Positions 1 through 11,891 of a DNA stretch of 12,041 nt are shown here, in pieces; position 1 is the first letter of the stretch, and every line of letters begins with the position of its first letter. The notes below the pieces were generated by a model. The model did not search any database. It had not been told where the DNA came from and saw only the letters and a program-made list of their open reading frames with translations. The stretch is taken from positions 1 to 12,041 of the forward strand of contig DATFXE010000259.1 in NCBI GenBank assembly GCA_035258585.1, given 5' to 3'. The translations under genes and the position numbers were made by a program. The DNA is from Roseiflexaceae bacterium (GTDB lineage: Bacteria; Chloroflexota; Chloroflexia; Chloroflexales; Roseiflexaceae).

Positions 1-2
1 GC

Positions 3-410
3 CCCTACCAGGACCGTGGCCCACGCCGTGACGACCGCCCAGCAGATAATCGTGGGTCGCGCCGTGACGACCACTCATTCGATAGCGGCGGTTCACGCCG
101 TGACACAATACGCGGCGGCGCGGGCGATTCGTACAATCGCCCGCGGCCCGAGCAGCCGGATAATGATCCGAACTTGCGCGGAGATAATCGGCCTGAGCCG
201 GGAAACGAGCGTTTGCCGGAGCGGAATTTTCGTGAGGAGAAACGCGGTCCAGGGCGCGAGTGGCACGAGCGCTCCGAGCAGGAGAAGCGCGATCGCCCAG
301 CCATGCGCGTCTCGCGACCTCGCTTTGGCGATCGGAGCGGCACGACCAGGCGTGTTGGCTTCCCATTCCGTCCGCGGCCGCCACGCGACGAGGAGGACGA
401 TAAGCGCTAG
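3..410 (+). CDS. 3' end of an upstream gene (5'-truncated by the window edge). It encodes an Arg/Asp/Glu-rich low-complexity tail with repeated GSRRDD/SRRDT units. This may be the C-terminal extension of a DEAD-box RNA helicase or another RNA-binding protein.
   Basis: Frame 3 is open from the window start to TAG at 408-410. The nucleotide repeat cgccgtgacgacc occurs at 22-34 and 60-72, with a variant at 95-105, and gives the peptide repeats. The composition is charged and RG/RD-rich, typical of disordered RNA-binding tails. No upstream domain is visible. Confidence 0.4.
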   Translation, partial: PYQDRGPRRDDRPADNRGSRRDDHSFDSGGSRRDTIRGGAGDSYNRPRPEQPDNDPNLRGDNRPEPGNERLPERNFREEKRGPGREWHERSEQEKRDRPAMRVSRPRFGDRSGTTRRVGFPFRPRPPRDEEDDKR

Positions 411-432: not shown

Positions 433-497
433 CACAGTTTGAATAGTGCGTAGTGCGTAGTACACAAGGCTACGCACTACGCACTGTTCAAACTGTG
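433..497. terminator. Long inverted repeat with a 28-bp stem (433-460 pairs with 470-497, one mismatch) and a 9-nt loop tacacaagg. It lies between two convergent genes and is a putative bidirectional transcription terminator or protein-binding palindrome.
   Basis: Read directly: ccacagtttgaatagtgcgtagtgcgtag / ctacgcactacgcactgttcaaactgtg are reverse complements except A/G at one position. Each arm contains the tandem heptamer gtagtgc x2. The + gene ends at 410 and the - gene ends at 529. The stem is AT-rich and no U-tract is present, so this is not a canonical intrinsic terminator. Confidence 0.45.
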
Positions 498-1283: not shown

Positions 1284-1862
1284 CTAGCGCGATCCGAAAT
1301 CTTGAGTCCAGTAGTAGCGAAACGGACCGCCGAGCTGGCCGTTATCCATTCGCACATTGGATTGATCGTCCGGCTGCTCGTAATAGCCGACGCCAATCTC
1401 ACGCAACTCACAATTCAGAATGTTTGCTCGATGTTCCGGGCTGGTCATCCAACCGGCGACGACCTCTTCAGGGCTGGCTGGGCCGGCTGCTAGATTCTCG
1501 GCTAGCTGCGCGTAGTTATAGCCCGTCGCCACGATCCGGCTGACCATCGTCGAGCCATCGGAGCCGCTATGGCTGAACAGATTGCCCAGCGCCATATCCT
1601 GGCTGTGCGCGCTGGCGGCGGCAGCTAGCTGCGGCGAGTGCACCAGCGGGATAGGACACCCATGTTGCCGTCGCTGAGCGTTGGTCAGATCAATCACTCG
1701 CTGCTCGATCGAGGGCCCCGCGCGCGACAGCAGCGGCAGATACACGCGGAAACCATTCGACGCGGCGCGCCCGCTCGTCGGCATAATTATAGCCATGCTA
1801 AGCAGGAAGAGAGCGGCAAGCAGGCAGGCCAAACGCAGCATGTAGCAGGCTCGAAGGAGCAT
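1284..1862 (-). CDS. Secreted CAP-domain protein (YkwD-like), a paralog of the downstream gene.
   Basis: Motifs WMTSPEHRANIL, EIGVGYY and C-terminal YYWTQDFGS. It has a hydrophobic N-terminal signal or anchor LACLLAALFLLSMAII. A GGAG RBS (rc of 1868-1871) lies 5 nt upstream of ATG (rc of 1860-1862). Only 14 bp separate it from the next CAP gene, suggesting an operon. Confidence 0.8.
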   Translation of the reverse strand: MLLRACYMLRLACLLAALFLLSMAIIMPTSGRAASNGFRVYLPLLSRAGPSIEQRVIDLTNAQRRQHGCPIPLVHSPQLAAAASAHSQDMALGNLFSHSGSDGSTMVSRIVATGYNYAQLAENLAAGPASPEEVVAGWMTSPEHRANILNCELREIGVGYYEQPDDQSNVRMDNGQLGGPFRYYWTQDFGSR

Positions 1863-3080: not shown

Positions 3081-3668
3081 TCAAGATCCGTTGGCATGAG
3101 CAGCTCTAAAGCAGCCCGCGATATGGTCGTTTACCATCCCCACGCTCTGCATCAAGGCATAGCACATCGTCGGCCCTACGAACGCAAAACCATGCTTACG
3201 CAGGTCTTTGGAGAGCCTAATTGAAAGAGGGGTTTGCGCTGGTATGGCTGCTAAGGTCGCAGGTGGTGGCTGCTGGAGCGGTGCTCCATCGACAAATGAC
3301 CACAGGTACCGATCAAACGTGCCTATCTCCCTCTGCACGTTCAGAAAGCAGCGCGCGTTGCGGATCGTCGCTTCAATTTTCAGCCGATTCCGGATGATGC
3401 CCGTATCAGCCATAAGCCGCTCTACATCCGCAGCTGTGTAGGCAGCAACGCGCTCGACATCCCAGCCATCAAACGCCCGGCGGAAGTTCTCGCGCTTTCG
3501 TAGGATGGTGACCCAGGACAAACCAGCTTGAAAGCTTTCTAACATGAGGCGCTCAAACAGGGCAGCTTCATCGTGGCATGGGATACCCCACTCCTGATCG
3601 TGATAGGCCACCATCAGTGGGTCGGTGGTAGCCCAGCCGCAGCGCATGAATTCAGTGTCGTTGCTCAT
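3081..3668 (-). CDS. tag: DNA-3-methyladenine glycosylase I (Tag).
   Basis: Translation RCGWATTDPLMVAYHDQEWGIPCHDEAALFERLMLESFQAGLSWVTILRKRENFRRAF matches the Tag family signature, including the Zn-binding Cys/His. RBS GGAG sits about 10 nt upstream of ATG. Confidence 0.88.
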   Translation of the reverse strand: MSNDTEFMRCGWATTDPLMVAYHDQEWGIPCHDEAALFERLMLESFQAGLSWVTILRKRENFRRAFDGWDVERVAAYTAADVERLMADTGIIRNRLKIEATIRNARCFLNVQREIGTFDRYLWSFVDGAPLQQPPPATLAAIPAQTPLSIRLSKDLRKHGFAFVGPTMCYALMQSVGMVNDHIAGCFRAAHANGS

Positions 3669-3710: not shown

Positions 3711-3751
3711 CTAACTAAAAAGCGGATGCGCGAGTACACTCACGCATCCGC
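3711..3751 (-). terminator. Rho-independent terminator of the PspC-domain gene: a GC-rich hairpin followed by a U-tract.
   Basis: Minus-strand read: gcggatgcgtgagtgtactcgcgcatccgc followed by TTTTTAGTTAGTT. The stem is 9 bp perfect plus 4 more with one mismatch. It lies 23 nt after the pspC stop at 3774. Confidence 0.65.
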
Positions 3752-3773
3752 CCGAACGATCGGTCCGCAGTCA

Positions 3774-4064
3774 TTACGAATTGAACATCCCGCGTACGCG
3801 CTGCACCATCGACTCAGCTATCGATCGCATCTCATCGACATTCTCGCGCACCTGCTCGCGGGCATCCACGGCGGTGCTGTCCTCGTTGGGCACAAGCAGC
3901 CACAGCGCCAGATAGAGCATGAACCCGAAGCCGTTCAGCAATGCGAGCGCCAGTAGAACGATCCGCACCAGCAGTGGGTCGATATTGAACATTGCGGCCA
4001 GACCGCCGGCCACACCGGCGATCATCCGGTCGTTGCGGCTGCGAACTAAACGCTTGCCCTGCAT
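3774..4064 (-). CDS. PspC-domain membrane protein (phage-shock-protein C family, stress-responsive).
   Basis: N-terminal RLVRSRNDRMIAGVAGGLAAMFNIDPLLVRIVLLALALLNGFGFMLYLALWLLVP is the canonical PspC domain, an amphipathic region plus a TM helix. RBS GAGGTG sits 6 nt upstream of ATG. Confidence 0.75.
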   Translation of the reverse strand: MQGKRLVRSRNDRMIAGVAGGLAAMFNIDPLLVRIVLLALALLNGFGFMLYLALWLLVPNEDSTAVDAREQVRENVDEMRSIAESMVQRVRGMFNS

Positions 4065-4116
4065 AAGTACACCTCATAACATATGTCGGAGCGCGCTTCG
4101 CCTCCGGCAGACTACG

Positions 4117-4136
4117 CGTCGTATATGCCTACGACG
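4117..4136. promoter_or_regulatory. Palindrome CGTCGTA-n6-TACGACG in the divergent pspC/ASCH intergenic region. Candidate operator.
   Basis: Seen directly: cgtcgta tatgcc tacgacg, 7-bp perfect arms. It is located between the divergently transcribed genes and overlaps the likely promoter zone of both. Confidence 0.3.
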
Positions 4137-4151
4137 TGCCAAGGAGCTGGA

Positions 4152-4562
4152 TTGTTGCGAACACACCTCGCGATCATGGTCGAGCCGTATTTGACGCGCG
4201 TGCTGGCGGGCGAGAAGACGATCGAGTCTCGCTTTTCGCGCAGCCGCATTCCTCCATACGGCTGTGTCGCGGCCGGCGACCTGATCTGGCTCAAGCGCGC
4301 GGGCGGGCCAGTGCTGGCCAGCGCGCGGGCATCCGAGGTGCGCCAGTATAGCGGGCTGAGCGGGAAGCAGGTGGATGCGCTGCTGGCGCGCTGGGGTCCC
4401 GAGCTGAATCTAGAAGCAGACTTCGCCGCACGCGCGCGGGAGTGCCGTTACGCCACGCTTATCTGGCTCGGCGAGATCGTTCTGCTGCCGGAGCCGCAAG
4501 CCTACAGGCGGCGTGGCCGGCAAGGGTGGGTGCACGACACCGATTTCCCACGGATTATATAG
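4152..4562 (+). CDS. ASCH-domain protein (PUA-like fold).
   Basis: Translation MVEPYLTRVLAGEKTIESRFS...GDLIWLKRAGG matches the ASCH domain N-terminal motif (GxKTxExR). The likely start is TTG at 4152 or 4155, preceded by AAGGAG at 4141-4146. The six-frame track's ATG at 4083 would overlap the pspC promoter region. The C-terminal codons overlap the left arm of an inverted repeat. Confidence 0.6.
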   Translation: MLRTHLAIMVEPYLTRVLAGEKTIESRFSRSRIPPYGCVAAGDLIWLKRAGGPVLASARASEVRQYSGLSGKQVDALLARWGPELNLEADFAARARECRYATLIWLGEIVLLPEPQAYRRRGRQGWVHDTDFPRII

Positions 4563-4599
4563 ATTGCCGCTGAATAATCCGTGTAATCAGTGGGAAATC
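4542..4599. terminator. Nested inverted repeat between convergent ASCH and ctp genes. Outer 10-bp arms are gatttcccac/gtgggaaatc and inner 7-bp arms are ggattat/ataatcc. Putative bidirectional terminator or binding site.
   Basis: Arms are exact reverse complements. The ASCH stop TAG (4560-4562) sits in the loop. The ctp stop is at 4609-4611. No U-tract on either strand. Confidence 0.4.
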
Positions 4600-4608
4600 C
4601 GCGCCCTA

Positions 4609-5880
4609 CTACTTCCTCGCCACTGCATTCAAGACTTCAAGTGCGCGCACGAGTTGCGCGTCACTGCTATGGAGCAGCGCCTGGGGATCGAGCTGGGCCG
4701 CGTTAGCCGGCGAGAGCGGCACGACATCGGGCGACAGGCTAATCAGTTCATCAGGCTGGACGCCCTTGCCGCGCACGATTTCGCCGTTGGGCGTGAGCCA
4801 CTGAGTCGTTCCGATCCGTACTTGCGCCCCGTCGTCGAGGTTGAACGTCCGCAGTACAGTCGCGGTCCCAAACGTCGGCTCGCCGATCAGCCGCGCGCGC
4901 TTGGCGTCCTTCAGGGCGCCGGCCAGTATCTCCGCTGAGCTGGCGCTGTTGCTGTTCACCAGCACCACCACGGGGATGTCGAGCGCCACGCCGCCGGCCG
5001 CCGTCTTGTAGGGAGTGCGCGAGCCGGAGCGATCCTGTTCGAGCAGCACTGTCGTATCGGCTGGCAAAAACTGGCTGGCCACGCCGATCAGCTCGTTCAC
5101 GTAGCCGCCCGGATTATTGCGCAGGTCGAGCACGATCGAAACGGCGCCCTGCGCCTTGGCATCGGTCAGCGCCTGTTTGACCTCGTCGCCGGCGCGCTCG
5201 GCGAACTGGTTGAGGTGGAGCAGCGCGACCTTGTTTTGCAACATGCGCCAGGAGACGCTCGGCATATTGATATTGGCGCGCGTTATCGTCACATCCTGCG
5301 GCTGAGTATCGCCGGCGTGCTGAATCGTCAGCGTGACGCGGGTGCCTTTCGGGCCGCGCACGCGATTGCGCAGCTCCGAGACGCTGATACCGTGGACATC
5401 CTCGCCGTTAATCTTGAGGATCAGATCGTTTGGGCGCAGGCCGGCCTGCTCAGCCGGCGAGCCCTCGATCGGCTGGATGATCAGCGGCTGTCCATCCTTG
5501 ACATCGATATAGGCGCCGATCCCCTCGAAATGACCGGAGAGCTCTTCACGCTCGGCCTTGGCCACATCCGGCGGCAGGTAGCGGGTATGGCCGACATCGC
5601 CAAGGCTGTCGAGCATACCCTCGATCGCGCCATCGGTCATCTTCTTTGGATCGGCGGCGGCAGGATCGACATATTCGTTGCGCGCGAGATCCCAGGTCTT
5701 CCAAAAATTCTCGAAGCTCGTGCAGACTTCGGGCGCTTCGGGGCAGGGGCTAGGAGCCTTGAACCACAGCGTCCCGAAATAGCCGCCGCCGAGGCCGATG
5801 ACCAACGTCAGGCCCAGCATCGGCATGATCAGCCAGATCGGCAGCTGAATGCGCAATAATCGTGAAAAAAACTCTCGCAT
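4609..5880 (-). CDS. ctpA: C-terminal processing peptidase (S41 family, tail-specific protease) with an N-terminal membrane anchor and a PDZ domain.
   Basis: PDZ region GIGAYIDVKDGQPLIIQPIEGSPAEQAGLRPNDLILKINGEDV. S41 catalytic region LVNSNSASSAEILAGALKD...RLIGEPTFGTATV with the Ser/Lys dyad context. N-terminal TM helix. Confidence 0.88.
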   Translation of the reverse strand: MREFFSRLLRIQLPIWLIMPMLGLTLVIGLGGGYFGTLWFKAPSPCPEAPEVCTSFENFWKTWDLARNEYVDPAAADPKKMTDGAIEGMLDSLGDVGHTRYLPPDVAKAEREELSGHFEGIGAYIDVKDGQPLIIQPIEGSPAEQAGLRPNDLILKINGEDVHGISVSELRNRVRGPKGTRVTLTIQHAGDTQPQDVTITRANINMPSVSWRMLQNKVALLHLNQFAERAGDEVKQALTDAKAQGAVSIVLDLRNNPGGYVNELIGVASQFLPADTTVLLEQDRSGSRTPYKTAAGGVALDIPVVVLVNSNSASSAEILAGALKDAKRARLIGEPTFGTATVLRTFNLDDGAQVRIGTTQWLTPNGEIVRGKGVQPDELISLSPDVVPLSPANAAQLDPQALLHSSDAQLVRALEVLNAVARK

Positions 5881-5905: not shown

Positions 5906-5947
5906 GTTGTCAATGGTCAGTTGTCAGTGATCAGTTGTCAGTCGTGG
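5906..5947. repeat. Tandem heptamer array (period 7, consensus GTNRTCA; also readable as about 3 copies of a 14-mer GTTGTCAGTGATCA) in the fmt-ctp intergenic region, in the ctp 5' region.
   Basis: gttgtca atggtca gttgtca gtgatca gttgtca gtcgtgg. The 14-mers at 5906-5919 and 5920-5933 are 12/14 identical. The array contains TGATCA and TTGACA-like (minus strand) motifs. Confidence 0.5.
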
Positions 5948-5965
5948 CCGGCAACTGCTCGATCT

Positions 5966-5974
5966 GTAGTATAC
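5966..5974 (-). promoter_or_regulatory. Possible extended -10 promoter TGgTATACT (minus strand) inside the fmt-ctp spacer, which would give ctp its own transcript with a roughly 90-nt leader containing the heptamer array.
   Basis: The reverse complement of 5966-5974 is TGGTATACT (TGnTAnAnT). No -35 is present. The alternative is read-through from fmt. Confidence 0.3.
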
Positions 5975-6011
5975 CATTGTGGCGCAAGGGATGGGATGAG
6001 TGGATGGTTAG

Positions 6012-6950
6012 TTACTCGCCTAAGCGCGCGTCCTCGATCTCCCGCAGGCCGCGCCGCCAATCGGCGGCGCCAAGCTGGCGCTTGCCGGATGGCTGGACGG
6101 TCAGCAGCTCCAGGGCGCCCGCCCCTGTTGCCACCCAGACCCCTTGATCCTCCCGCAGCAGCGTGCCCGGCGCCGCCGCGCCTGTCCATTCGGGGTGCGC
6201 GCGCGCGGCAATGATCTTGAATGGCTGGCCGCGCCAGCTGGTCTGCGCGCCGGGCCAGGGCTGGTACGCGCGGGTCATTCGCTCGATGTGGACGGCGTCG
6301 GCGCTCCAATCGATCGCGCCATCTTCCTTCTTCAGCATCTTCGTGTAGGTCGCCTGGCTATCATCCTGGGGGCTGGGCGTCAGCTGGCCCTCAGCGTAGC
6401 GCGCCAGCGATTCAAGCAGCAGCGCCGAGCCGATCCTGAACAGCGCCTCGGTCAACTCGTCGCTGCGTGCGTCGGGGGGCAGGGGCACGCGCTGCTGCGC
6501 CAGGATCGGGCCGCTGTCCATCTTGGCGTCCAGCAGGATCACCGTCACACCTGTCTCTGTATCGCCCGCCAGGATGGCGCCGGGCACCGGCGTGGGCCCG
6601 CGGTGGCGCGGCAGCAGCGAGGGGTGAATATTCACATAGCCGAGCGGCGGAATGGCCAGCACGTTCTTGCGCAGGATCTCGCCGTATGCCGCTACGACAC
6701 CTACATCTGGATGCAGCGCCGCCAACTGCTCGACCGCGGCCGGGTCGCGCAGCGTCTCGGGCTGGAACACCGGAATGCCCAACCGGATGGCCACACGCTT
6801 GACCGGAGGCGGCTCGGGGGCGCGCCCACGCCCAAATGGCCGATCCGGCTGTGTCACAACACCCACGACCTCGTAGCGCGGATCGGTGGCCAGCGCCTCA
6901 AGCGGGATAGCCGCGAACTCCGGCGTGCCAAGAAAGATGACTCGGATCAC
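6012..6950 (-). CDS. fmt: Methionyl-tRNA formyltransferase.
   Basis: N-terminal IRVIFLGTPEFA, the formyltransferase core HPSLLPRHRGPTPV (N/H/D catalytic context), and the C-terminal Fmt domain. I place the start at GTG (rc of 6948-6950), giving MIRVIFLGTPEF, with GGGAGAG RBS 5 nt upstream. The six-frame track's ATG at 6977 would overlap that RBS. Confidence 0.88.
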   Translation of the reverse strand: MIRVIFLGTPEFAAIPLEALATDPRYEVVGVVTQPDRPFGRGRAPEPPPVKRVAIRLGIPVFQPETLRDPAAVEQLAALHPDVGVVAAYGEILRKNVLAIPPLGYVNIHPSLLPRHRGPTPVPGAILAGDTETGVTVILLDAKMDSGPILAQQRVPLPPDARSDELTEALFRIGSALLLESLARYAEGQLTPSPQDDSQATYTKMLKKEDGAIDWSADAVHIERMTRAYQPWPGAQTSWRGQPFKIIAARAHPEWTGAAAPGTLLREDQGVWVATGAGALELLTVQPSGKRQLGAADWRRGLREIEDARLGE

Positions 6951-7036
6951 AATATCTCTCCCACTGTCGAGCTTCAAATCTTACGCCGGTCCCGGTCAAA
7001 AGCTGTTACACCCGCGGCAGTACCGTCGTCGATGCC

Positions 7037-7051
7037 TCTGTTCCGAACAGA
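7037..7051. promoter_or_regulatory. Palindrome TCTGTTC-c-GAACAGA upstream of fmt (minus) and upstream of the ADH promoter (plus). Candidate operator.
   Basis: 7-bp perfect arms with a 1-nt centre. The same half-sites CTGTTCC/GGAACAG form the stem at 10396-10435. Confidence 0.3.
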
Positions 7052-7103
7052 AAAGCCAAATACCGCTGCGAAAACCGAGCCTATGAACACATGTCAGACA
7101 CTA

Positions 7104-7132
7104 TTGCATCCGCCGTGCCGCCTGTAGTATAA
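7104..7132 (+). promoter_or_regulatory. Sigma70-like promoter TTGCAT-17-TATAAT for the ADH-SPFH-PfkB operon.
   Basis: TTGCAT at 7104-7109, a 17-nt spacer, TATAAT at 7127-7132. The ATG is at 7259 with GAGG RBS 5 nt upstream. The 5' UTR is about 120 nt. Confidence 0.55.
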
Positions 7133-7258
7133 TGCAACAACGCGGCGCGGCATAGCGCAATCCAATGCGCCGTTTTGCTTCGAATAGTATACCGTTCTTC
7201 GCGCGCGGCGTCCAAGCGCTTGTGCCGCCGCCAGAACTGCTGGCCGTGTGAGGCAGCT

Positions 7259-8260
7259 ATGCAGGCACTCCTCTTCGATGGTCAGCTTCGGCTGGCGAAT
7301 GATTATCCCGAACCGACTCTGGCCCCTGGCGAGGCGCTGATTCGCCCTTCACTCGTCGGCATCTGCAATACCGATATCGAAATCACCCGCGGCTATATGG
7401 GCTTTCGCGGCGTGCTCGGGCATGAGTTCGTCGGCGTCGTCCAGGCCTGCGCCGACCGCGGCTGGCTCGGCCGGCGCGTGGTGGGCGAGATCAACGCGGC
7501 CTGCGGGCGCTGTACCGTCTGCGCGCGCGGCGACCAAAGCCACTGCCCGGAGCGCACGACACTCGGGATCGATCGGCGTGACGGCACAATGGCCGAGCTC
7601 TTCAGCCTGCCGCTCGCCTGCCTACACGAGGTTCCAGCCGGCGTGCCCGACGAGGCGGCCGTCTTCGCCGAGCCATTGGCGGCGGCGCTCGCGATTCTGG
7701 AACAGTCGCACGTTCGGCCGACCGAGCGCGTAGCGGTGGTGGGCGACGGCAAGTTAGGGCTACTGTGCGCTCAGGCATTGCGCCTGCCCGGCTGCGAGGT
7801 CGTGGTGGTCGGGCGGCACCCCGAGCGCTGGGAACTGCTGCATCAGTTAGGGGTTGCAACCGTCCACGTCAGTAGCTTGGACCAAAGACCAAAGACCAAA
7901 GACGAAACACAGATTGGTCTTTGGTCTTTGGTCCTTCGTCCTTGGTCATTTGACGTTGTCGTGGACTGCACCGGCCAGCCATCCGGCCTCGCGGTGGCGC
8001 GCGATCTGGTGCGGCCGCGCGGGCGCCTGGTCCTCAAGAGCACCTTCGCCGCTGAGTCCGGGATGAATCTGAGCAGGCTGGTTGTGGACGAAGTGCAACT
8101 GCTGGGGTCGCGCTGCGGGCCGTTCGCCCCGGCGCTGCGCCTGCTCGAGCGCGGGCTTGTGCAGGTACAACCGCTGGTGGCTGGCCGCTTCTCGCTGCGT
8201 GAGGGTCTCAAAGCCTTCGCGGCGGCCAACCGCCGCCTGAAAATACTACTGGAGATCTAG
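7259..8260 (+). CDS. Zn-dependent medium-chain dehydrogenase/reductase (alcohol, threonine or sorbitol dehydrogenase-like).
   Basis: Catalytic Zn ligands in GICNTD and GHEFVG. Structural Zn Cys4 in CGRCTVCARGDQSHC. Rossmann motif VAVVGDGKLGLL. Start chosen at ATG 7259 (MQALLFDG...) with GAGG RBS, rather than the track's 7175. The variable segment between the two Rossmann strands is encoded by a palindromic heptamer-repeat element (see the repeat feature). Confidence 0.8.
   Translation: MQALLFDGQLRLANDYPEPTLAPGEALIRPSLVGICNTDIEITRGYMGFRGVLGHEFVGVVQACADRGWLGRRVVGEINAACGRCTVCARGDQSHCPERTTLGIDRRDGTMAELFSLPLACLHEVPAGVPDEAAVFAEPLAAALAILEQSHVRPTERVAVVGDGKLGLLCAQALRLPGCEVVVVGRHPERWELLHQLGVATVHVSSLDQRPKTKDETQIGLWSLVLRPWSFDVVVDCTGQPSGLAVARDLVRPRGRLVLKSTFAAESGMNLSRLVVDEVQLLGSRCGPFAPALRLLERGLVQVQPLVAGRFSLREGLKAFAAANRRLKILLEI
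7879..7950. repeat. Palindromic tandem-heptamer element embedded in frame within the ADH CDS: (GACCAAA)x3 GACGAAA - loop cacagatt - (GGTCTTT)x2 GGTCCTT CGTCCTT GGTCATT. A 19-bp perfect inverted repeat (7879-7897 / 7916-7934).
   Basis: Read directly. ggaccaaagaccaaagacc and ggtctttggtctttggtcc are exact reverse complements. The reading frame stays open and encodes SLDQRPKTKDETQIGLWSLVLRPWS. Confidence 0.6.
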
Positions 8261-8261
8261 T

Positions 8262-9425
8262 ATGTCGATCAAGAATGCCGCGGTGACAAGCATACTGGCG
8301 CTGATGTTCCTCTCGCTGCTGACGATCTACATGATCAGCACACCTAGCCCGCTGATCACATTTCTAAGCGTTCTGATCATGTTGGTGGCCCTGATCATGG
8401 CCCAGAGCCGCAGCTGGCGCGATATCGGCATCCTGGCGTCTGTATCGGTGATCGTCTCTATGGTCGCGATTGGGCTGCTTGCCAGCGCGCGGTTGGGCCG
8501 CCTGGGAACGCTGATCGTCCTGCTGCTGTGGGGATTACTGCTGTTCGCGCTGTTCACGTGGGCACGGCGCACGATCATTCCACTGCCGCGCGATCGGGCG
8601 ATCTTGATTCAAAATACCTTTACCGGCCAGGTTCACCTCGCCGACGGGCCGATCGCTGCCCCGAACGTGCCGCTTATGGAGCGGATCATCGCAGTTATCC
8701 CGCTCTACGAGCTGCATGAGGACCTGACGGTAGCGACTATCAATGCCAGCGCGCCGCAGAATGTGGACGAGATCAAGGTGCACGTCAACTACAAGGTTGT
8801 CGACCCGCTTCTCGCGGCACAAGGCATACCAAAGCGCACCCTGGCCCAGGAGACGCTGGCCAAGGAGATGAACCTTAACGTCGAGGAGGCGCGCCGAAAT
8901 CCGGTCTTCTGGGAGCGGCTGCTTGGCGATCAAATGCGCCATGAGGCCGAGGAGATCACGCGCGAAGTATTTTATCGCAACGCATTCGCTCAGAATGTTC
9001 TCGAAATATACCGCAACCGGGCGGATCTGGCCCAGGAGATCAGGGAGCGCTTGAATCCGTATGTGCAGCGCTGGGGCACACGCGCGCGGCTGCTGGAGAT
9101 CGACAGCGTCAAGGTCGATCGCGAGATTATTAGAGCAATCAACAAGGATGCAGCTCGCGAGGATGAGACCAAGCTGCGAGAGATCGAGGCCAAACGCGAC
9201 GCCACGCGCGTTCGCGCCGTCCTCGGCGCCGAGGCAGAGGTCGAGGGTGAGCGCATCAAAGCGATTATCGCGGCGCTCAAGGAAGCCGGGGTCGAGATCA
9301 CGCCCGAGGTGCTGATTGGCGCGATCAACGCCGCATCCGATTGGCAGATCGAGGGTGACTTCGGCCTGCTGACGGAGAATCCGATACAGATACCGCCGGG
9401 TGTCATGCCGCACGAGAAAAAGTAG
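8262..9425 (+). CDS. SPFH/Band-7 domain membrane protein (stomatin/flotillin/HflC-like) with four N-terminal TM helices and a C-terminal Glu/Ala/Arg-rich coiled-coil region.
   Basis: Four hydrophobic helices in residues 8-100. The SPFH-like core is PLMERIIAVIPLYELHEDLTVATINASAPQNVDEIKVHVNYKVVDPLLA. The coiled-coil EA-rich tail is REIEAKRDATRVRAVLGAEAEVEGERIKAI. The ATG at 8262 is 1 nt after the ADH stop, indicating translational coupling. Confidence 0.7.
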   Translation: MSIKNAAVTSILALMFLSLLTIYMISTPSPLITFLSVLIMLVALIMAQSRSWRDIGILASVSVIVSMVAIGLLASARLGRLGTLIVLLLWGLLLFALFTWARRTIIPLPRDRAILIQNTFTGQVHLADGPIAAPNVPLMERIIAVIPLYELHEDLTVATINASAPQNVDEIKVHVNYKVVDPLLAAQGIPKRTLAQETLAKEMNLNVEEARRNPVFWERLLGDQMRHEAEEITREVFYRNAFAQNVLEIYRNRADLAQEIRERLNPYVQRWGTRARLLEIDSVKVDREIIRAINKDAAREDETKLREIEAKRDATRVRAVLGAEAEVEGERIKAIIAALKEAGVEITPEVLIGAINAASDWQIEGDFGLLTENPIQIPPGVMPHEKK

Positions 9426-9428
9426 CCC

Positions 9429-10376
9429 ATGGAGCATATCGCCAACAGCAACGGGTTGTTCGAAGTGGTCGTCGTCGGCGCGGCGTGCCTTGATGTCAAG
9501 GGCCGCCCGCTTGGCGATATCGTCGCCGGCACATCCAACCCCGGCGTCGTTCAGATCAGCGTGGGCGGCGGCGCGCGCAACGTCGCCGAGAATTTGGCGC
9601 GCCTGGGCACGTCCACCGCACTGCTCAGCGTGGTCTGCCAGGATGATTTTGGCCGTACGATCATTCGCCAGACCGAGCGGGCCGGTGTGAACACCGACCA
9701 TGTGCTGATCAGCTGCGATCAGCATTCTGCGGCCTATATGGCACTGCAAAGCGCCGAGCGCACGCTGCTGGTGGCGCTGGCCGATACCGTTGCCACCGGG
9801 GCGCTTACGCCCGAGTACATCGGCGATCACGCCAGCATGCTCGAGCAGGCGCGTATGGTGGTGATCGACGCGAACGTACCGCTTGAGACGGCCGAGACGC
9901 TGCTGTCGATCTGCGGCGCGGCGGGCGTGCCGGTGGCTTTGGAGCCGGTGGCCTACGCACCGGCGCTGCAATACCGCGAGCTGGCCGGCGCATTCTATCT
10001 TACGACGCCGAATGGGGTGGAGGCCCAGGCGCTGACCGGCCTGCCGGTGGCCAACACCGAGCAGGGCGCACTTGCCGCCAAACAGCTGGTCGCGCTGGGC
10101 GTCCAGATTGCGATCATCACGCTTGGAGATGCCGGGCTGGTGTATGCCACACCTGAGGCCAACGGCTATGTGCCATCGATCGAAGGCGAGATCGTCGACC
10201 CGACCGGCGCCGGCGACGCGCTGACCGCCGCGGTCGTGTATGCGTTGCTGAACGATATTCCAGTGGATGAAGCCGTGCGCTTGGGGGTCAGCGCCGCGAC
10301 CCTCACGCTGGCATCGACTGATACGGTGCGGCAGGATCTGAGCTTGGAAAGCTTGTATGCGCAACTGGTGATTTAG
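9429..10376 (+). CDS. PfkB-family (ribokinase-like) carbohydrate/nucleoside kinase, pseudouridine-kinase (YeiC/PsuK)-like.
   Basis: N-terminal VVGAACLDV, the GGGARNVAENLARLG motif typical of YeiC-like kinases, and the C-terminal PfkB signature DPTGAGDALTAAVVYALL. The start is 3 nt after the SPFH stop. Confidence 0.8.
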   Translation: MEHIANSNGLFEVVVVGAACLDVKGRPLGDIVAGTSNPGVVQISVGGGARNVAENLARLGTSTALLSVVCQDDFGRTIIRQTERAGVNTDHVLISCDQHSAAYMALQSAERTLLVALADTVATGALTPEYIGDHASMLEQARMVVIDANVPLETAETLLSICGAAGVPVALEPVAYAPALQYRELAGAFYLTTPNGVEAQALTGLPVANTEQGALAAKQLVALGVQIAIITLGDAGLVYATPEANGYVPSIEGEIVDPTGAGDALTAAVVYALLNDIPVDEAVRLGVSAATLTLASTDTVRQDLSLESLYAQLVI

Positions 10377-10395
10377 GAAATAGGATACAGGGGAC

Positions 10396-10435
10396 AGGGA
10401 ACAGAGGCAAGCACCCCACCTACGTCCTGTTCCCT
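10396..10435. promoter_or_regulatory. Hairpin or inverted repeat AGGGAACAG-n22-CTGTTCCCT between the PfkB stop and the GGDEF gene. Possible terminator or operator.
   Basis: 9-bp perfect stem, extendable to 12 bp with one mismatch. The long 22-nt loop and absent U-tract argue against a canonical terminator. It shares half-sites with the 7037-7051 palindrome. Confidence 0.3.
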
Positions 10436-10467
10436 ATCACCTATCACCTGTCAACTGTAACCTACAA
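10433..10467. repeat. Five tandem heptamers (CCTATCA CCTATCA CCTGTCA ACTGTAA CCTACAA) abutting the ATG of the GGDEF response-regulator gene.
   Basis: Read directly. Period 7, consensus CCTRTCA. The last unit overlaps a TACAAT hexamer at 10463-10468. No Shine-Dalgarno sequence lies between the array and the ATG at 10469. Confidence 0.45.
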
Positions 10468-10468
10468 T

Positions 10469-11794
10469 ATGACAAAACGCATCCTGATAGCGGACGATGA
10501 GCCGAACGTGCGACAATTGCTCGAACTGGTATTGCACGGACAGGGCTATGAGGTCGCGCTTGCCACCAATGGCGCTCAGCTTGTGCGGATGGCCCAGGAA
10601 CGTGTCCCCGATCTGGTGCTGGTTGACCTTATGATGCCACAACTGGACGGCTATGAGGCCATTCGGCAGCTGCGCAACGATACCCGCACCGCGCATTTGC
10701 CGATGCTGATTCTGACAGCCAAATCTACGCTTGAGGATGTGGTGATCGGGTTCGAGACCGGCGCCGACGATTATATCACCAAGCCCTTCAACATTCCCGA
10801 ACTGCTGGCGCGGATCAAAGGCCATCTGCGCCGGGCCGATCAGCCTCCGGTCCGCAACCCGCTCACCGGCCTGGCCGGCAACACGCTGCTGACAGAGGAG
10901 CTGAAGTACCGGCTCAAGAAAGCTGAGCCTTTCGCCTACCTTTATGCCGATCTCGACAATTTCAAAGCCTTCAACGACACCTACGGCCCGGCCCGCGGCG
11001 ATCGGGTGATCACCCTGATGGCCGACGTGCTGACCGACGCAGTGCGCACACACGGCTCCAGCGGCGATTTTATCGGGCATGTCGGGGGCGATGACTTCGC
11101 GATTCTCACGACGCCAGACATGCTGGATATGCTGTGCCAGACGATTATCAGCATCTTCGATCAGCGTGTCCGGCTGCTGTATGATCCGGAAGATCTCGAG
11201 CGCGGGTATCTTCAGGGCTCGGATCGCCAGGGTGTTCCGCGCCGCTTCCCGATCATCTCGATCTCGATCGGCGTCGCCACCAACCGCCACCGCAGCTTCG
11301 CCGATTACGAAGAGCTAAGCCGCGTCGCGACCGAGATGAAGCAGTTCGCCAAACAGGAGCCCGGCAGTTTCTACGCCGTCGACGTGCGTGGCCGGCGCGA
11401 TCAGCACGTACCAGACGAACGGCGCGGCAGCAAGGTGCCAACCGTGCTGGTGGTGACGCAAGAATCCGAGCTTCGGAAGTTCTTGCGAACGGCGCTGAAG
11501 GAAGCCGGATACCGCGCGCTCGAAGCGCCGGGGGTGCCGGAAGCCAACGCGCTGCTGACATATGAGCCCGACCTGTCGCTGATCATCGCCGATACGCGGC
11601 TGGGCGATCAGCTATGGGAGATGGCCGATACATTGAGCGCCGAGATGCCGACCGTGCCGCTCACTGCCATCTCGATCGAGGAGCGCGACGAGCAGGCCGG
11701 TCGCGCCCATGGCGTGCGCGTTTTTCTCCGGCAGCCATTCCAGGAACAGCAGTTTCTGGACTTTGTCATTCAGTTCGCGCCCGCGCATGAGTGA
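10469..11794 (+). CDS. Response regulator with an N-terminal receiver (REC) domain, a GGDEF (diguanylate-cyclase-like) domain carrying the non-canonical A-site GGDDF, and a C-terminal degenerate receiver-like domain.
   Basis: REC: ILIADDEP...LVDLMMPQLDG...LTAKS...KPF with phospho-acceptor Asp and Lys present. GGDEF: NPLTGLAGN...YADLDNFKAFNDTYG...GHVGGDDFAIL. There is no RxxD I-site (SSGD instead). The C-terminal domain (PTVLVVTQESE...LIIADTRL...LRQPF) lacks the acidic pair and the conserved Lys. Confidence 0.85.
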   Translation: MTKRILIADDEPNVRQLLELVLHGQGYEVALATNGAQLVRMAQERVPDLVLVDLMMPQLDGYEAIRQLRNDTRTAHLPMLILTAKSTLEDVVIGFETGADDYITKPFNIPELLARIKGHLRRADQPPVRNPLTGLAGNTLLTEELKYRLKKAEPFAYLYADLDNFKAFNDTYGPARGDRVITLMADVLTDAVRTHGSSGDFIGHVGGDDFAILTTPDMLDMLCQTIISIFDQRVRLLYDPEDLERGYLQGSDRQGVPRRFPIISISIGVATNRHRSFADYEELSRVATEMKQFAKQEPGSFYAVDVRGRRDQHVPDERRGSKVPTVLVVTQESELRKFLRTALKEAGYRALEAPGVPEANALLTYEPDLSLIIADTRLGDQLWEMADTLSAEMPTVPLTAISIEERDEQAGRAHGVRVFLRQPFQEQQFLDFVIQFAPAHE

Positions 11795-11835: not shown

Positions 11836-11891
11836 ATGGCTGCAAGGGCGTGGGAATGCGCCGCAGCGCGTTCCCACGCCCTTGCAGCCAT
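11836..11891. repeat. Perfect 21-bp inverted repeat (atggctgcaagggcgtgggaa / ttcccacgcccttgcagccat) with a 14-nt GC-rich loop, 42 nt downstream of the GGDEF gene stop. Candidate terminator, structured RNA or protein-binding palindrome.
   Basis: Arms are exact reverse complements. It is followed on + by an A-tract (aaaataaag), not a U-tract, so the orientation is atypical for a + strand intrinsic terminator. The annotated 72-aa minus ORF spanning it is probably spurious. Confidence 0.5.

What the first reader, a model, noticed from the sequence alone, without database searches (positions are those of the whole stretch)
5906..10467. Three separate tandem heptanucleotide arrays (STRR-like) at gene 5' ends and inside a CDS
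Period-7 tandem arrays occur at 5906-5947 (GTNRTCA x6, in the ctp leader), 7880-7950 (GACCAAA/GGTCTTT palindrome in the ADH gene) and 10433-10467 (CCTRTCA x5, abutting the GGDEF gene ATG). Several units share a TGTCA/GGTCA core. Heptamer tandem repeats are well known as STRR elements in heterocystous cyanobacteria (for example STRR2 TTGGTCA) but not, to my knowledge, in high-GC non-cyanobacterial genomes. Three arrays in 12 kb suggests a genome-wide family, possibly with regulatory or recombinational roles.
Basis: partly seen in the sequence, partly recalled or inferred. Interest (0 to 1): 0.55.

Follow-up and report, generated by a model that had tools for sequence, protein, structure and literature searches.

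The report
Heptamer-repeat hairpins, some translated
The window, from a Roseiflexaceae (Chloroflexota) bacterium, carries four fast-evolving arrays of 7-base repeats, three of them folded-back hairpins; one is read in frame inside an alcohol dehydrogenase gene, and its encoded peptide recurs in at least eleven unrelated protein families.

Summary
The window has 5 period-7 arrays at TRF score >=36, against 0.017 expected.

Three of the four elements are inverted pairs of arrays, so each is a hairpin with a heptamer-built stem. The DNA is Roseiflexaceae. In 187 kb from close relatives, period 7 dominates (19 arrays/100 kb). Arrays are about 20-fold denser between genes than inside them.

They turn over quickly: 47% of the differences between two near-identical relatives fall in 2% of the sequence, including a 7-nt indel.

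The ADH element lies in frame in a low-confidence surface loop. Near-identical ADH genes carry unrelated repeat families there, with sharp boundaries. The encoded peptide (DERRKTKDE...SSFVLRPSS) also occurs in ABC-F, NRPS and nine other protein families.

Most likely these are non-essential, slippage-driven repeat hairpins homogenised or copied between loci. I found no description of the translated, dispersed form, which resembles Rickettsia palindromic elements. Function and any mobilising enzyme are unknown.

The parts
433..497 (.). Heptamer-repeat hairpin between the convergent RluB-like gene (ends 409, +) and the CAP-domain gene (529-1269, -). Arms are 433-460 and 470-497; the stem contains TAGTGCG x2.6 and its complement CTACGCA x2.3.
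   Evidence: TRF rows 444-461 and 470-485. Inverted repeat I1, 28 nt, 96% complementary. RNA fold -51.9 kcal/mol, z = -12.2. No T-run, and not called terminator-like. Relatives have unrelated non-heptamer palindromes at this site. The same unit recurs in L084 at a non-orthologous site.
5906..5947 (.). Unpaired direct array GTTGTCA ATGGTCA GTTGTCA GTGATCA GTTGTCA GTCGTGG, with a 14-nt higher-order period. It lies between the fmt stop and the ctp ATG. On the ctp sense (minus) strand it reads TGACAAC/TGATCAC.
   Evidence: TRF. No complementary partner within 90 nt. Weak fold, z = -2.45. An 18-nt identical stretch, CAGTGATCAGTTGTCAGT, is shared with the ADH cassette of relative L092. The minus-strand TTGACA at 5913-5908 plus 16 nt plus GAGAAT is promoter-like, but the scan total is at chance level. 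Absent at the orthologous site in L083, L087 and L088.
7879..7952 (+). In-frame heptamer-repeat hairpin inside the Zn-ADH CDS. Left arm (GACCAAA)x3 + GACGAAA at 7879-7910; loop CACAGA; right arm TTGGTCT TTGGTCT TTGGTCC TTCGTCC TTGGTCA at 7914-7952. It encodes DQRPKTKDETQIGLWSLVLRPWS. It is a variant of family F1 (GACGAAA/TTTCGTC).
   Evidence: TRF. Inverted repeats I2/I4/I5. ORF reads through. RNA fold -39.3 kcal/mol, z = -7.5. AF2: residues about 209-230 are coil with pLDDT 51-63, between strands 200-203 and 231-236. Orthologues carry 0 to about 50 aa at this position. The right arm is in 7-nt register with the native FDVV codons TTTGACG TTGTCGT (read directly).
7856..7948 (+). Variable cassette of the ADH gene: the codons between 'LG(I/V)' and 'FDVVVDC'. 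It comprises about 24-30 nt of non-repeat sequence plus the hairpin, and is replaced as a block between otherwise near-identical orthologues.
   Evidence: coordinates; pairs 97-98.7% identical outside the cassette carry different families. (L081 vs L092). L170 vs L096 share 95.2% nt identity upstream, the cassette is unalignable, and identity resumes at TTCGAYGTCGTT.
10382..10467 (+). Imperfect heptamer hairpin filling the pfkB-GGDEF spacer. The purine-rich left arm (GGATACA GGGGACA GGGAACA G) is at 10382-10404. The right arm (CCTGTTC CCTATCA CCTATCA CCTGTCA ACTGTAA) is at 10427-10467 and runs into the conserved CCTACAAT-ATG.
   Evidence: TRF 10433-10464. Inverted repeat I8, 23 nt, 78%. RNA fold -30.2 kcal/mol, z = -3.6. 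Relatives carry arrays with different units and copy numbers at the same spacer: L082 CCGTCAC/CCATCAC x7, L086 GAATTAG x3 / TCATACT x4 / TTCATAA x6, L081 a 14-mer, L083 none.
7259..8260 (+). Host gene: Zn-dependent alcohol dehydrogenase (MDR family). It remains intact despite the insert.
   Evidence: Pfam ADH_N and ADH_zinc_N. 120 orthologues at up to 98% identity, named Roseiflexaceae where a name is given.
4609..5880 (-). Context gene: S41 C-terminal processing peptidase (ctp). The 5906-5947 array lies 26-67 nt upstream of its ATG.
   Evidence: Pfam Peptidase_S41 and PDZ.
10469..11794 (+). Context gene: response regulator with a GGDEF domain. The 10382-10467 element abuts its ATG.
   Evidence: Pfam Response_reg and GGDEF.

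Best explanation
These are members of a lineage-wide population of hypermutable short-unit repeat arrays (7 nt, sometimes 8 nt) in a Roseiflexaceae genome. They resemble cyanobacterial STRRs in form, and most are organised as two inverted arrays that make a hairpin.

Shown:
- They occupy DNA that tolerates them: any kind of intergenic spacer and, in frame, permissive surface loops of proteins.
- They change by gain or loss of whole units and by spread of a variant unit through an arm (concerted evolution), at roughly 40 times the rate of the surrounding sequence.
- The same unit families recur at unrelated loci and in unrelated proteins.

Inferred:
- Arrays are seeded from native flanking sequence and expand by replication slippage.
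- The inverted partner arises by intrastrand template switching or fold-back copying.
- Dispersed arrays are kept similar by ectopic short-patch conversion, or by occasional copying between loci.
- At the ADH site, whole cassettes are exchanged by homologous recombination through the conserved flanks.
- No function is required for their persistence. Any effects are incidental: stable RNA/DNA hairpins at gene ends and in leaders, -35-like TTGACA copies upstream of ctp, and extra peptide loops.
For: Real and period-specific: 5 arrays observed against 0.017 expected. In the clade, 36 arrays at period 7, 4 at period 8 and 0 at periods 5-6.

Hairpin organisation: 28/69 arrays have a >=12/14 complementary tandem partner within 90 nt, against 4.4% for shuffled units. 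Folds have z = -12, -7.5 and -3.6.

Neutral-space occupancy: about 20-fold denser in intergenic DNA. Found in codirectional (13/43), divergent (4/12) and convergent (2/9) spacers. The ADH insert sits in a low-pLDDT loop.

Slippage and homogenisation: between L089 and L090, 28 of 59 differences over 8.2 kb fall in two heptamer hairpins (165 nt). These include a 7-nt TCGTCAC indel and the changes GACGAAA GACGAAA GACGACA -> GACGACA x3 and TTCGCCC -> TTCGTCC.

Arms homogenise independently: in L088 the left arm is GACCAAC x4 and the right arm GTTCGTC x4.

Flank seeding: arrays are in 7-nt register with the native TTTGACG TTGTCGT (FDVV codons) and with the conserved CTACAAT-ATG.

Cross-locus families:
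- In L088 the ADH and ABC-F inserts share both arm units, including the same arm mismatch.
- L086 shares GGTGACAC, TTTTGCA, GGAGACAA and CCCTTCAC between sites.
- The window array at 5906 shares 18 nt with the L092 ADH cassette.
- The F1 peptide occurs in >=11 protein families.
- Loops between the arms are not conserved, which fits conversion of the repetitive parts only.

High-GC contigs from the IMG/VR viral collection are also dense in such arrays, consistent with a cellular process acting on any resident DNA.
Against: - No slippage event was seen between two near-identical assemblies: L084 and L085 differ by 13 SNPs in 21 kb and have no indels.
- Slippage alone explains neither the preference for 7 nt nor the birth of the inverted arm.
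- The F1 arms are conserved (DERRKTKDE / SSFVLRPSS) across proteins and across ADH lineages that are only 71-88% identical. That is hard to reconcile with very fast neutral turnover and hints at copying from conserved sources or at selection.
- 592 of 1172 heptamer classes are stop-free in all six frames, so the coding filter alone does not explain recurrence.
- ADH cassette families are nearly random with respect to the core phylogeny: 37/71 nearest neighbours share a family, against a permutation mean of 28. That needs recombination or re-insertion, not just in-situ drift.
- Template switching and ectopic conversion are inferred, not observed.
Confidence: 0.55

Rival explanations
1. The hairpins are non-autonomous mobile elements (RPE-, REP/REPIN- or MITE-like). 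A dedicated enzyme, such as a hairpin-recognising Y1 transposase (RAYT) or another transposase, inserts them into new sites including coding loops. The heptamer structure is a property of the element family.
For: - The same F1 architecture (about 3 units, a loop, about 3-4 complementary units) is found in frame in >=11 unrelated protein families, and up to 10 times in one NRPS.
- Families F1-F4 are shared between the ADH and ABC-F hot spots.
- In L088 the ADH and ABC-F copies share the same arm imperfection.
- Cassette replacement has sharp boundaries in genes that are 95-99% identical elsewhere.
- F1-like hairpins and dense period-7 arrays occur on contigs from the IMG/VR viral collection.
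- RPEs set a precedent for in-frame palindromic insertions (PMC10969869).
Against: - Loops and internal sequence are not conserved between copies.
- Unit number and unit sequence vary continuously.
- I saw no obvious target-site duplication or terminal inverted repeats other than the arrays themselves at the L170/L096 boundaries. This was not tested systematically.
- Arrays are in register with native flanks.
- Many arrays are unpaired direct arrays.
- No transposase is present in the window.
- The exchanged ADH cassette includes about 30 nt of homologous but diverged coding sequence. That looks allelic rather than insertional.
Confidence: 0.2
2. The arrays are functional cis-regulatory elements selected for their effect on neighbouring genes. 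The possibilities are RNA hairpins acting as terminators or stabilisers, leader structures controlling translation of ctp and the GGDEF regulator, or tandem binding sites for a heptamer-reading protein.
For: - Very stable hairpins sit at a convergent gene end (433-497) and in a leader abutting an ATG.
- The purine-rich left arm and pyrimidine-rich right arm of the GGDEF element resemble SD and anti-SD sequences (read directly).
- There is a -35-like TTGACA in the ctp-proximal unit.
- Heptamer arrays affect expression in Nostoc recF/recO, and G-rich heptamers do so in Xanthomonas/E. coli reporters (bioRxiv 10.1101/2022.06.06.494920; PMC4692102).
- Some spacers (pfkB-GGDEF, AT3-DUF8198) hold arrays in most relatives.
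Against: - Unit sequence, copy number and even presence are not conserved at orthologous sites.
- There is no preference for a gene-orientation class.
- Arms drift out of complementarity (L088, L086).
- The same families sit inside coding loops, where regulation of a neighbour is implausible.
- 433-497 has no U-tract.
- The promoter scan total equals chance (4 found, 3.7 expected).
- No Rfam family matches.
Confidence: 0.13
3. The ADH and ABC-F loop cassettes are a selected diversity or contingency system. Discrete allele classes would be maintained by balancing or diversifying selection, or expression would be switched on and off by 7-nt frameshifts.
For: - Discrete families (F1-F4) are distributed almost independently of the core gene tree and persist across lineages that are 70-90% identical.
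- Flank divergence appears elevated next to the cassette.
Against: - All of the roughly 240 ADH and ABC-F homologues examined are in frame. No frameshifted alleles were seen.
- The hosts are cytoplasmic housekeeping enzymes with no obvious target of diversifying selection.
- The encoded peptides are simply translations of the repeats.
- The insert is predicted to be disordered.
- L084 and L085 are identical at the arrays.
Confidence: 0.05
4. Chance low-complexity sequence or an assembly artefact.
For: The window is MAG-like; the only exact-match look-up I ran, for Tag, found a single short Logan contig. Repeats are prone to mis-assembly.
Against: - 5 arrays observed against 0.017 expected.
- The same elements sit at the same codon in independent assemblies from ENA, JGI, NCBI and Logan.
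- Reading frames are preserved.
Confidence: 0.01

Closest known systems
Cyanobacterial STRR sequences
   Same: Tandem heptanucleotide units, many arrays per genome, mostly intergenic, a few preferred unit families per genome, and function unknown. The unit GGGGACA here and in Oscillochloris L003 differs by one base from the GGGGACT/GGGGATT arrays of Nostoc (PMC4692102).
   Different: The host is Chloroflexota at about 61% GC, not a heterocystous cyanobacterium. The dominant units differ (GACNAAN, GGNGACA, GTYRTCA, TAGTGCG). About 40% of arrays are paired into hairpins. Octamer variants exist. There are documented in-frame copies in conserved enzymes.
Heptanucleotide SSRs reported in other bacteria: general over-representation (Mrazek et al. 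2007, as cited in PMC4692102), Xanthomonas GGGAATC arrays, Geobacter metallireducens GGGACCG x4 elements, Beggiatoaceae/Bacteroidetes TAACTGA arrays
   Same: Period 7 is the modal long-SSR period. Arrays are enriched between genes and vary in length and sequence between close relatives. Some inverted pairs occur (Xanthomonas) and some copies are intragenic (Geobacter: 49 inter- and intragenic sites; PMC2700814).
   Different: Those reports describe one dominant unit per genome and mostly direct arrays. Here there are many unit families, and a hairpin is a common architecture. I also show cassette-like replacement at a fixed codon and the same translated family across many proteins.
Rickettsia palindromic elements (RPEs)
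   Same: Palindromic elements inserted in frame into many unrelated housekeeping genes, translated, and located where the protein fold tolerates them (PMC10969869). That compares with ADH, ABC-F, NRPS, DHODH, MnmA and the other hosts here.
   Different: RPEs are about 100-150 bp with conserved full-length family sequences. These elements are about 60-170 bp, built from tandem 7/8-nt units, conserved only in the arms, variable in copy number, and hypermutable.
REP/REPIN elements with RAYT transposases; MITEs
   Same: Short, dispersed, hairpin-forming, mostly extragenic repeats with genome-specific sequence families.
   Different: There is no conserved non-repetitive hairpin sequence. I noticed no TIR/TSD signature. 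No RAYT or transposase can be linked with the available data.

Membership tests
Cyanobacterial STRR | Tandem repeats of a 7-nt unit | tested here: met
   TRF period 7 at 444-485, 5906-5942, 7880-7952 and 10433-10464.
Cyanobacterial STRR | Many dispersed copies per genome, predominantly intergenic | tested here: met
   Tested in 187 kb of close relatives, not in the source genome itself: 19.3 arrays/100 kb, about 20-fold intergenic enrichment, and 19/64 spacers occupied.
Cyanobacterial STRR | Unit matches the STRR1/2/3 consensus (CCCCAGT, TTGGTCA, CAACAGT; from memory) | tested here: not met
   The window units are TAGTGCG, GTTGTCA/GTGATCA, GACCAAA/TTGGTCT and CCTATCA/CCTGTCA. Only single copies equal TTGGTCA (7944-7950). 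GGGGACA is one base away from the complement of STRR1.
Cyanobacterial STRR | Host is a (heterocystous) cyanobacterium | tested here: not met
   The closest ADH homologues (up to 88% identity) are named Roseiflexaceae or Chloroflexota.
Prokaryotic heptanucleotide SSRs (general class) | Period 7 over-represented relative to neighbouring periods | tested here: met
   In the clade: 36 arrays at period 7, 4 at period 8, 0 at periods 5-6. In distant phyla: 42 at period 7, 7 at period 8, 2 at period 6.
Prokaryotic heptanucleotide SSRs (general class) | Unit-number and unit-sequence polymorphism between close relatives | tested here: met
   L089 vs L090: a 7-nt indel and unit homogenisation, with 47% of differences in 2% of the sequence. 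No change was seen between L084 and L085.
RPE-like in-frame palindromic elements | Palindromic element inserted in frame in unrelated genes and read through | tested here: met
   ADH, ABC-F, a membrane protein and an aminotransferase at DNA level. NRPS, GT87, P-type ATPase, DHODH, MalT-TPR, GH43, MnmA, FAD oxidase and P22_AR_N at peptide level.
RPE-like in-frame palindromic elements | Insert lies at a structurally permissive (surface) position | tested here: met
   AF2 model of the window ADH: the insert is coil with pLDDT 51-63, flanked by strands with pLDDT >=90. The other hosts were not modelled.
RPE-like in-frame palindromic elements | Copies share a conserved full-length family sequence | tested here: not met
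   Only the repeat arms are conserved. Loops differ in length and sequence in every copy.
MITE | Terminal inverted repeats plus target-site duplication at precise insertion boundaries | tested here: inconclusive
   I noticed no obvious duplication at the L170/L096 and L081/L092 cassette boundaries, but this was not tested systematically. The inserts are old, and no empty or filled pair of a recent insertion was available.
REP/REPIN-RAYT | Associated RAYT (Y1 transposase) gene in the genome | not testable with these tools
   Only 12 kb of the source genome and up to 21 kb per relative are available. None is present in the window.
Intrinsic terminator | GC-rich stem followed by a U-run downstream of a gene | tested here: not met
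   433-497 is not among the terminator-like calls, and no T-run follows it.
Phase-variable contingency SSR | Intragenic SSR whose unit changes shift the frame and switch the gene off and on | tested here: not met
   All 120 ADH and 120 ABC-F homologues examined keep the frame across the insert.
Known RNA families (Rfam) | Match to a curated covariance model | tested here: not met
   No hit at gathering thresholds anywhere in the window.

The most novel reading that the evidence does not exclude
The hairpins are an undescribed class of element: palindromes built from tandem 7/8-nt units that a dedicated activity writes or moves. That activity might be a hairpin-specific transposase, or a slipping and template-switching polymerase or reverse transcriptase. 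It would act on any resident DNA of certain Chloroflexota (and, patchily, other phyla and their phages). It would repeatedly re-target the same permissive loops of housekeeping proteins, so that near-identical genes carry interchangeable, translated cassettes. If true, this would also point to the long-unknown origin of cyanobacterial STRRs and of the general bacterial excess of heptamer repeats.
Probability: 0.2. Interest if true: 0.85.

Novelty: new variant of a known kind. Interest (0 to 1): 0.58.

Why it matters
Heptamer repeats have been recorded in bacteria since 1990, and their excess was noted in 2007, yet neither their origin nor their function is known. This clade offers an unusually tractable view for four reasons:

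- The arrays are dense.
- Their turnover is visible between near-identical genomes.
- They occur as hairpins.
- They are recorded in protein sequence, which makes them searchable across billions of proteins.

Three consequences would follow if the dispersed, translated form is general.

- It is a bacterial source of new peptide loops in conserved enzymes, including NRPS adenylation domains.
- It is a confounder for gene calling, orthology and MAG assembly.
- It gives a handle for finding the responsible machinery, by profiling array density against gene content.

If instead the arrays are only slippage products, the result still corrects the assumption that such arrays are a cyanobacterial peculiarity.

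Tried and rejected
- Rfam at gathering thresholds: no family anywhere in the window.
- Promoter and terminator scans: totals at chance level, so the TTGACA/GAGAAT site at 5913-5886 is only a lead, and 433-497 is not terminator-like.
- L084 vs L085 (same species): no array polymorphism, so hypermutability had to be shown with L089/L090 instead.
- Hypothesis that the ADH insert families simply track phylogeny through in-situ gradual evolution: rejected by the nearest-neighbour test and the DNA breakpoints.
- Hypothesis that the coding filter alone explains recurrence of F1: weakened, because 51% of heptamer classes are stop-free in six frames.
- Sharing of single 13-mers between window arrays and other loci: about 4 expected by chance per array in 2.2 Mb, so these were discarded. 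Only the 18-nt match to L092 was kept.
- Same-genome comparison of ADH and ABC-F inserts: convincing only for L088. Two other probable same-contig pairs (P0052/P0170 and P0106/P0122) do not share a family.
- Alignment of the L088 ADH and ABC-F elements: homology is confined to the arms, so a copy-paste origin is not proven.
Cluster look-up gave only JGI metagenome sources.
- Two ABC-F contig look-ups returned no DNA.
- A strict F1 DNA pattern found nothing in viral contigs. A degenerate version found 6.
- Exact F1 DNA arrays occur only in ADH within the fetched loci.
- Literature searches for heptanucleotide repeats or STRR in Chloroflexi, and for the F1 peptides, found nothing.
- G-quadruplex reading: the window arrays have too few G-tracts (read directly).

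Full report
**1. What is in the window**

The window is about 61% G+C. Its genes are:
- two CAP-domain genes (529-1269 and 1284-1862, minus strand);
- AlkA (2051-2968, +), Tag (3081-3668, -) and PspC (3774-4064, -);
- an S41 peptidase, ctp (4609-5880, -), and fmt (6012-6977, -);
- a Zn-dependent alcohol dehydrogenase, ADH (7259-8260, +);
- an SPFH protein (8262-9425, +) and a PfkB kinase (9429-10376, +);
- a response regulator with a GGDEF domain (10469-11794, +).

PspC is assigned from the Pfam calls on the syntenic 96-aa gene in the Logan contig and in relatives. I did not scan it myself.

The closest ADH homologues that carry a name (up to 88% identity) are called Roseiflexaceae or Chloroflexota bacterium. 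Gene order fmt-ADH-SPFH-PfkB-GGDEF-TPR is conserved in the relatives I fetched.

**2. The observation**

Five rows reach score >=36. In 300 first-order Markov (dinucleotide-frequency-matched) randomisations of the window the expectation is 0.017 per window.

Three of the four elements are inverted pairs:
- 433-497: 28-nt arms, 96% complementary.
- 7879-7952 in ADH.
- 10382-10404 paired with 10427-10449: 78% complementary.

They fold far better than shuffles, with z = -12.2, -7.5 and -3.6.

The array upstream of ctp is unpaired (z = -2.45) and has a 14-nt higher-order period.

The ADH ORF reads through its hairpin and encodes DQRPKTKDETQIGLWSLVLRPWS. This is exactly the translation of (GACCAAA)n and its complement.

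**3. A lineage-wide population**

I assembled 187 kb from close relatives (loci L081-L096, L109, L118 and L121). Among arrays with score >=40 and >=3 copies:

| Period | Arrays |
|---|---|
| 7 | 36 (19.3 per 100 kb) |
| 8 | 4 |
| 5-6 | 0 |
| 9-12 | 4 |

.

In eight annotated loci (127 kb, 10.8% intergenic), arrays are about 20-fold denser between genes than within them once the ascertained ADH site is set aside.

19 of 64 intergenic spacers carry an array, with no preference for orientation: codirectional 13/43, divergent 4/12, convergent 2/9.

28 of 69 arrays have a >=12/14 complementary tandem partner within 90 nt, against 4.4% for shuffled units.

In more distant genomes period 7 is still the modal tandem period: 42 arrays, against 7 at period 8 and 2 at period 6. 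The distribution is patchy. 48 of 62 distant loci have none, while a few have 3-8, including a Planctomycetota MAG (L054) and, from the other-Chloroflexales group, Oscillochloris (L003).

This agrees with published statements that heptameric SSRs are over-represented in many bacteria. It also agrees with case reports in Xanthomonas, Geobacter, Beggiatoaceae and Nostoc (PMC4692102, PMC2700814, PMC4679880, bioRxiv 10.1101/2022.06.06.494920).

**4. How the arrays change**

*Orthologous spacers.* The same spacer holds arrays with different units and copy numbers in different relatives, or holds none. At pfkB-GGDEF:
- the window has GGGACAG/CCTRTCA;
- L082 has CCGTCAC/CCATCAC x7;
- L086 has GAATTAG x3, TCATACT x4 and TTCATAA x6;
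- L081 has a 14-mer;
- L083 has nothing.

The AT3-DUF8198 and fmt-ADH spacers behave the same way.

*Rate of change.* L089 and L090 differ at 59 alignment columns over 8.2 kb. 28 of those fall in two heptamer hairpins totalling 165 nt. The changes include:
- a 7-nt TCGTCAC deletion with accompanying changes in the opposite arm;
- homogenisation of GACGAAA GACGAAA GACGACA to GACGACA x3;
- TTCGCCC changed to TTCGTCC.

That is a roughly 40-fold local excess, and the changes are of the slippage or conversion type.

*Arms.* Arms can homogenise independently. In L088 the left arm is GACCAAC x4 and the right arm GTTCGTC x4, a systematic mismatch.

*Register with the flank.* Arrays are in 7-nt register with native flanking sequence. 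The ADH right arm continues into TTTGACG TTGTCGT, the FDVV codons. The GGDEF array continues into the conserved CTACAAT-ATG. This suggests seeding from local proto-repeats, which is an inference.

*Other palindromes.* Non-repetitive perfect palindromes also turn over completely at orthologous gene ends.

**5. The ADH insert is a replaceable cassette**

Among 120 orthologues, the loop between 'LG(I/V)' and 'FDVVVDC' ranges from 0 to about 50 extra residues.

At DNA level every insert I could read is an inverted 7- or 8-nt array.

The inserts fall into discrete families:

| Family | Units | Encoded peptide |
|---|---|---|
| F1 | GACGAAA / TTTCGTC | DERRKTK...SSFVLRPSS (the window carries the variant GACCAAA) |
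| F2 | GGAGACAA | DKETRRQ...LPVSLS |
| F3 | GTCNGTG / CGGACNA | ESVV..PSSV...RTTDNGQ |
| F4 | not determined | NDERGTMK...SSFIAHRSS |

The families do not follow the gene tree. The nearest core neighbour has the same family in only 37 of 71 cases (permutation mean 28, maximum 44). Proteins that are 97-98.7% identical outside the loop carry different families.

L170 (F1) and L096 (F2) are 95.2% identical over the 708 nt upstream. They are unalignable for about 90-120 nt, then identical again from TTCGAYGTCGTT. The left break falls right after CTGGGCATC. L081/L092 behave alike.

The cassette includes about 30 nt of non-repeat coding sequence that co-varies with the family.

An AlphaFold2 model (mean pLDDT 85) places the window's insert in a coil with pLDDT 51-63, between two confident Rossmann-fold strands.

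**6. The same families occur elsewhere**

*Within one genome.*
- In L088 the ABC-F gene has an in-frame hairpin whose two arms (CGACCAG / CGTTCGT) match the two arms of that genome's ADH insert, including the same arm-to-arm mismatch. An aminotransferase gene in L088 carries CGTTCGT as well.
- L083 has an in-frame hairpin in a membrane protein.
- L086 reuses GGTGACAC, TTTTGCA, GGAGACAA and CCCTTCAC at several sites.

*At a second hot spot.* 120 ABC-F homologues show a second hypervariable hot spot at the start of ABC domain 2. It carries families F1-F4 and a fifth, GAACCAA (QNQEPRTK...FSVLGS).

*Between genomes.* The window's ctp-leader array shares an 18-nt identical stretch with the F3 ADH cassette of L092. 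About 0.004 such matches are expected by chance.

*Across protein families.* I searched a profile of the F1 peptide against 1.84 billion representative proteins and found 67 hits at E <= 1e-3. The hosts are:
- NRPSs, with the insert in two known variable loops of the adenylation domain and up to 10 matched stretches in one protein;
- GT87, a P-type ATPase, dihydroorotate dehydrogenase and a MalT-like regulator;
- GH43, MnmA, an FAD oxidase and a P22-antirepressor-domain protein;
- many short ORFs.

Arms are conserved in these hits and loops are not.

Only 51% of heptamer classes are stop-free in all six frames. This shows the coding filter is too weak to explain the recurrence.

*Viral-collection contigs.* F1-like hairpins and very dense period-7 arrays also occur on 60-66% GC contigs from IMG/VR, for example 9 arrays in 3 kb.

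**7. Interpretation**

The best-supported reading is that these are non-essential, hypermutable short-unit repeat hairpins.

Shown:
- rapid change by whole units;
- occupancy of tolerant DNA;
- recurrence of families across loci.

Inferred:
- seeding from local flank sequence and expansion by slippage;
- creation of the inverted arm by template switching;
- maintenance of families by ectopic conversion or occasional copying;
- cassette exchange through the conserved flanks.

The main rival is a dedicated mobile element of the RPE or REPIN type. The breadth of hosts and the sharp cassette boundaries favour it. The non-conserved loops, the continuous unit variation, the register with native flanks and the absence of any TSD or transposase evidence count against it.

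A regulatory function is possible for individual copies: hairpins at gene ends, the GGDEF leader, and the -35-like TTGACA upstream of ctp. It is not supported as the reason the family exists, because nothing is conserved at orthologous sites.

Phase variation and artefact explanations are rejected.

**8. Novelty**

Heptanucleotide SSRs in diverse bacteria are known. In-frame palindromic elements are known from Rickettsia (PMC10969869).

I could not find the following described in the searchable library:
- the combination seen here: palindromes built from tandem heptamers, dispersed in frame across many protein families, and replaced as cassettes between near-identical genes;
- any account of such arrays in Chloroflexota.

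The library lacks most subscription-journal papers, so prior description cannot be excluded. I therefore class this as a new variant of a known kind.

Noticed in passing
window 7104-7258: The ADH gene has a conserved promoter-like TTGCAT-18 nt-TATAAT (about 7104-7133) followed by a roughly 125-nt leader. The leader is nearly invariant across relatives that differ elsewhere. It contains a small hairpin with a T-run (7155-7170 + CGTTTTGC). There is no Rfam match, and the consensus fold shows only weak covariation.
   Followed up: partly
window 5967-5975 and 7185-7193: The motif TAGTATACC (minus strand GGTATACTA, a -10-like TATACT, with TG upstream at the ctp copy) occurs upstream of both ctp and fmt. 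It is conserved at both places in relatives L082, L083 and L087. It is probably the real promoters, which would put the 5906-5947 array in the ctp 5' UTR.
   Followed up: partly
window 4542-4599, 11836-11891, 3720-3753: Long, near-perfect non-repetitive palindromes sit at the 3' ends of ctp, the GGDEF gene and Tag/PspC (24-26-nt arms; only 3720-3753 has a T-run). Where I compared relatives (downstream of the RluB-like gene, and 3' of ctp), the orthologous sites hold unrelated palindromes or heptamer hairpins. Palindrome turnover is therefore not limited to repeat arrays.
   Followed up: partly
window 4065-4608: The window has a 544-nt spacer between PspC and ctp, containing a 159-aa ORF (4083-4562, +) with no Pfam match. 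Relatives have only 159-356 nt here. A Logan contig of the same organism calls a 136-aa gene on the opposite strand.
   Followed up: no
L086:1954-2088, 9639-9802, 11132-11272: One relative uses 8-nt units extensively: GGAGACAA x8 in ADH, and GGTGACAC x6 and x13 in two spacers. It strings several arrays with gradually morphing units (GGTCGCA -> TCACGCA -> TTACGTA -> TTTTGCA) from stop codon to RBS. The same composite flanks both sides of an aminotransferase gene.
   Followed up: partly
L054 (Planctomycetota MAG), L003 (Oscillochloris sp. ZM17-4), L048, L060, L074, L075, L165: Dense period-7 arrays, often in inverted pairs, appear in a minority of genomes from several unrelated phyla, while most genomes in the same sample have none. 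The patchiness suggests a lineage-specific cause.
   Followed up: partly
L171-L176 (IMG/VR contigs): High-GC contigs from the IMG/VR viral collection carry F1-like hairpins ((GACGAAT)n...(TTCGTCA)n) and up to 9 period-7 arrays in 3 kb, some read through by long ORFs.
   Followed up: partly
P0241, P0247, P0251 (metagenomic NRPSs): Besides F1, NRPS adenylation-domain loops carry another translated heptamer family, DCRLQIADC...QSAICNLQSA, whose peptide periodicity implies (GATTGCA)n and its complement. Several modules of one protein carry different families at the same two loops.
   Followed up: partly
window 1-409 (+), L087:2-391: The C-terminal tail of the upstream RluB-like pseudouridine synthase is a low-complexity R/D-rich region with approximately 11-residue repeats (RRDDRPxDNRG). 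I did not test whether this derives from nucleotide repeat arrays.
   Followed up: no
L169:9081-9109 (Kouleothrix sp. MAG): The ABC-F hot spot holds a degenerate AGAACCG x4 hairpin, but the surrounding 20 kb has almost no other heptamer arrays. Relic inserts may therefore outlive the activity that made them.
   Followed up: no
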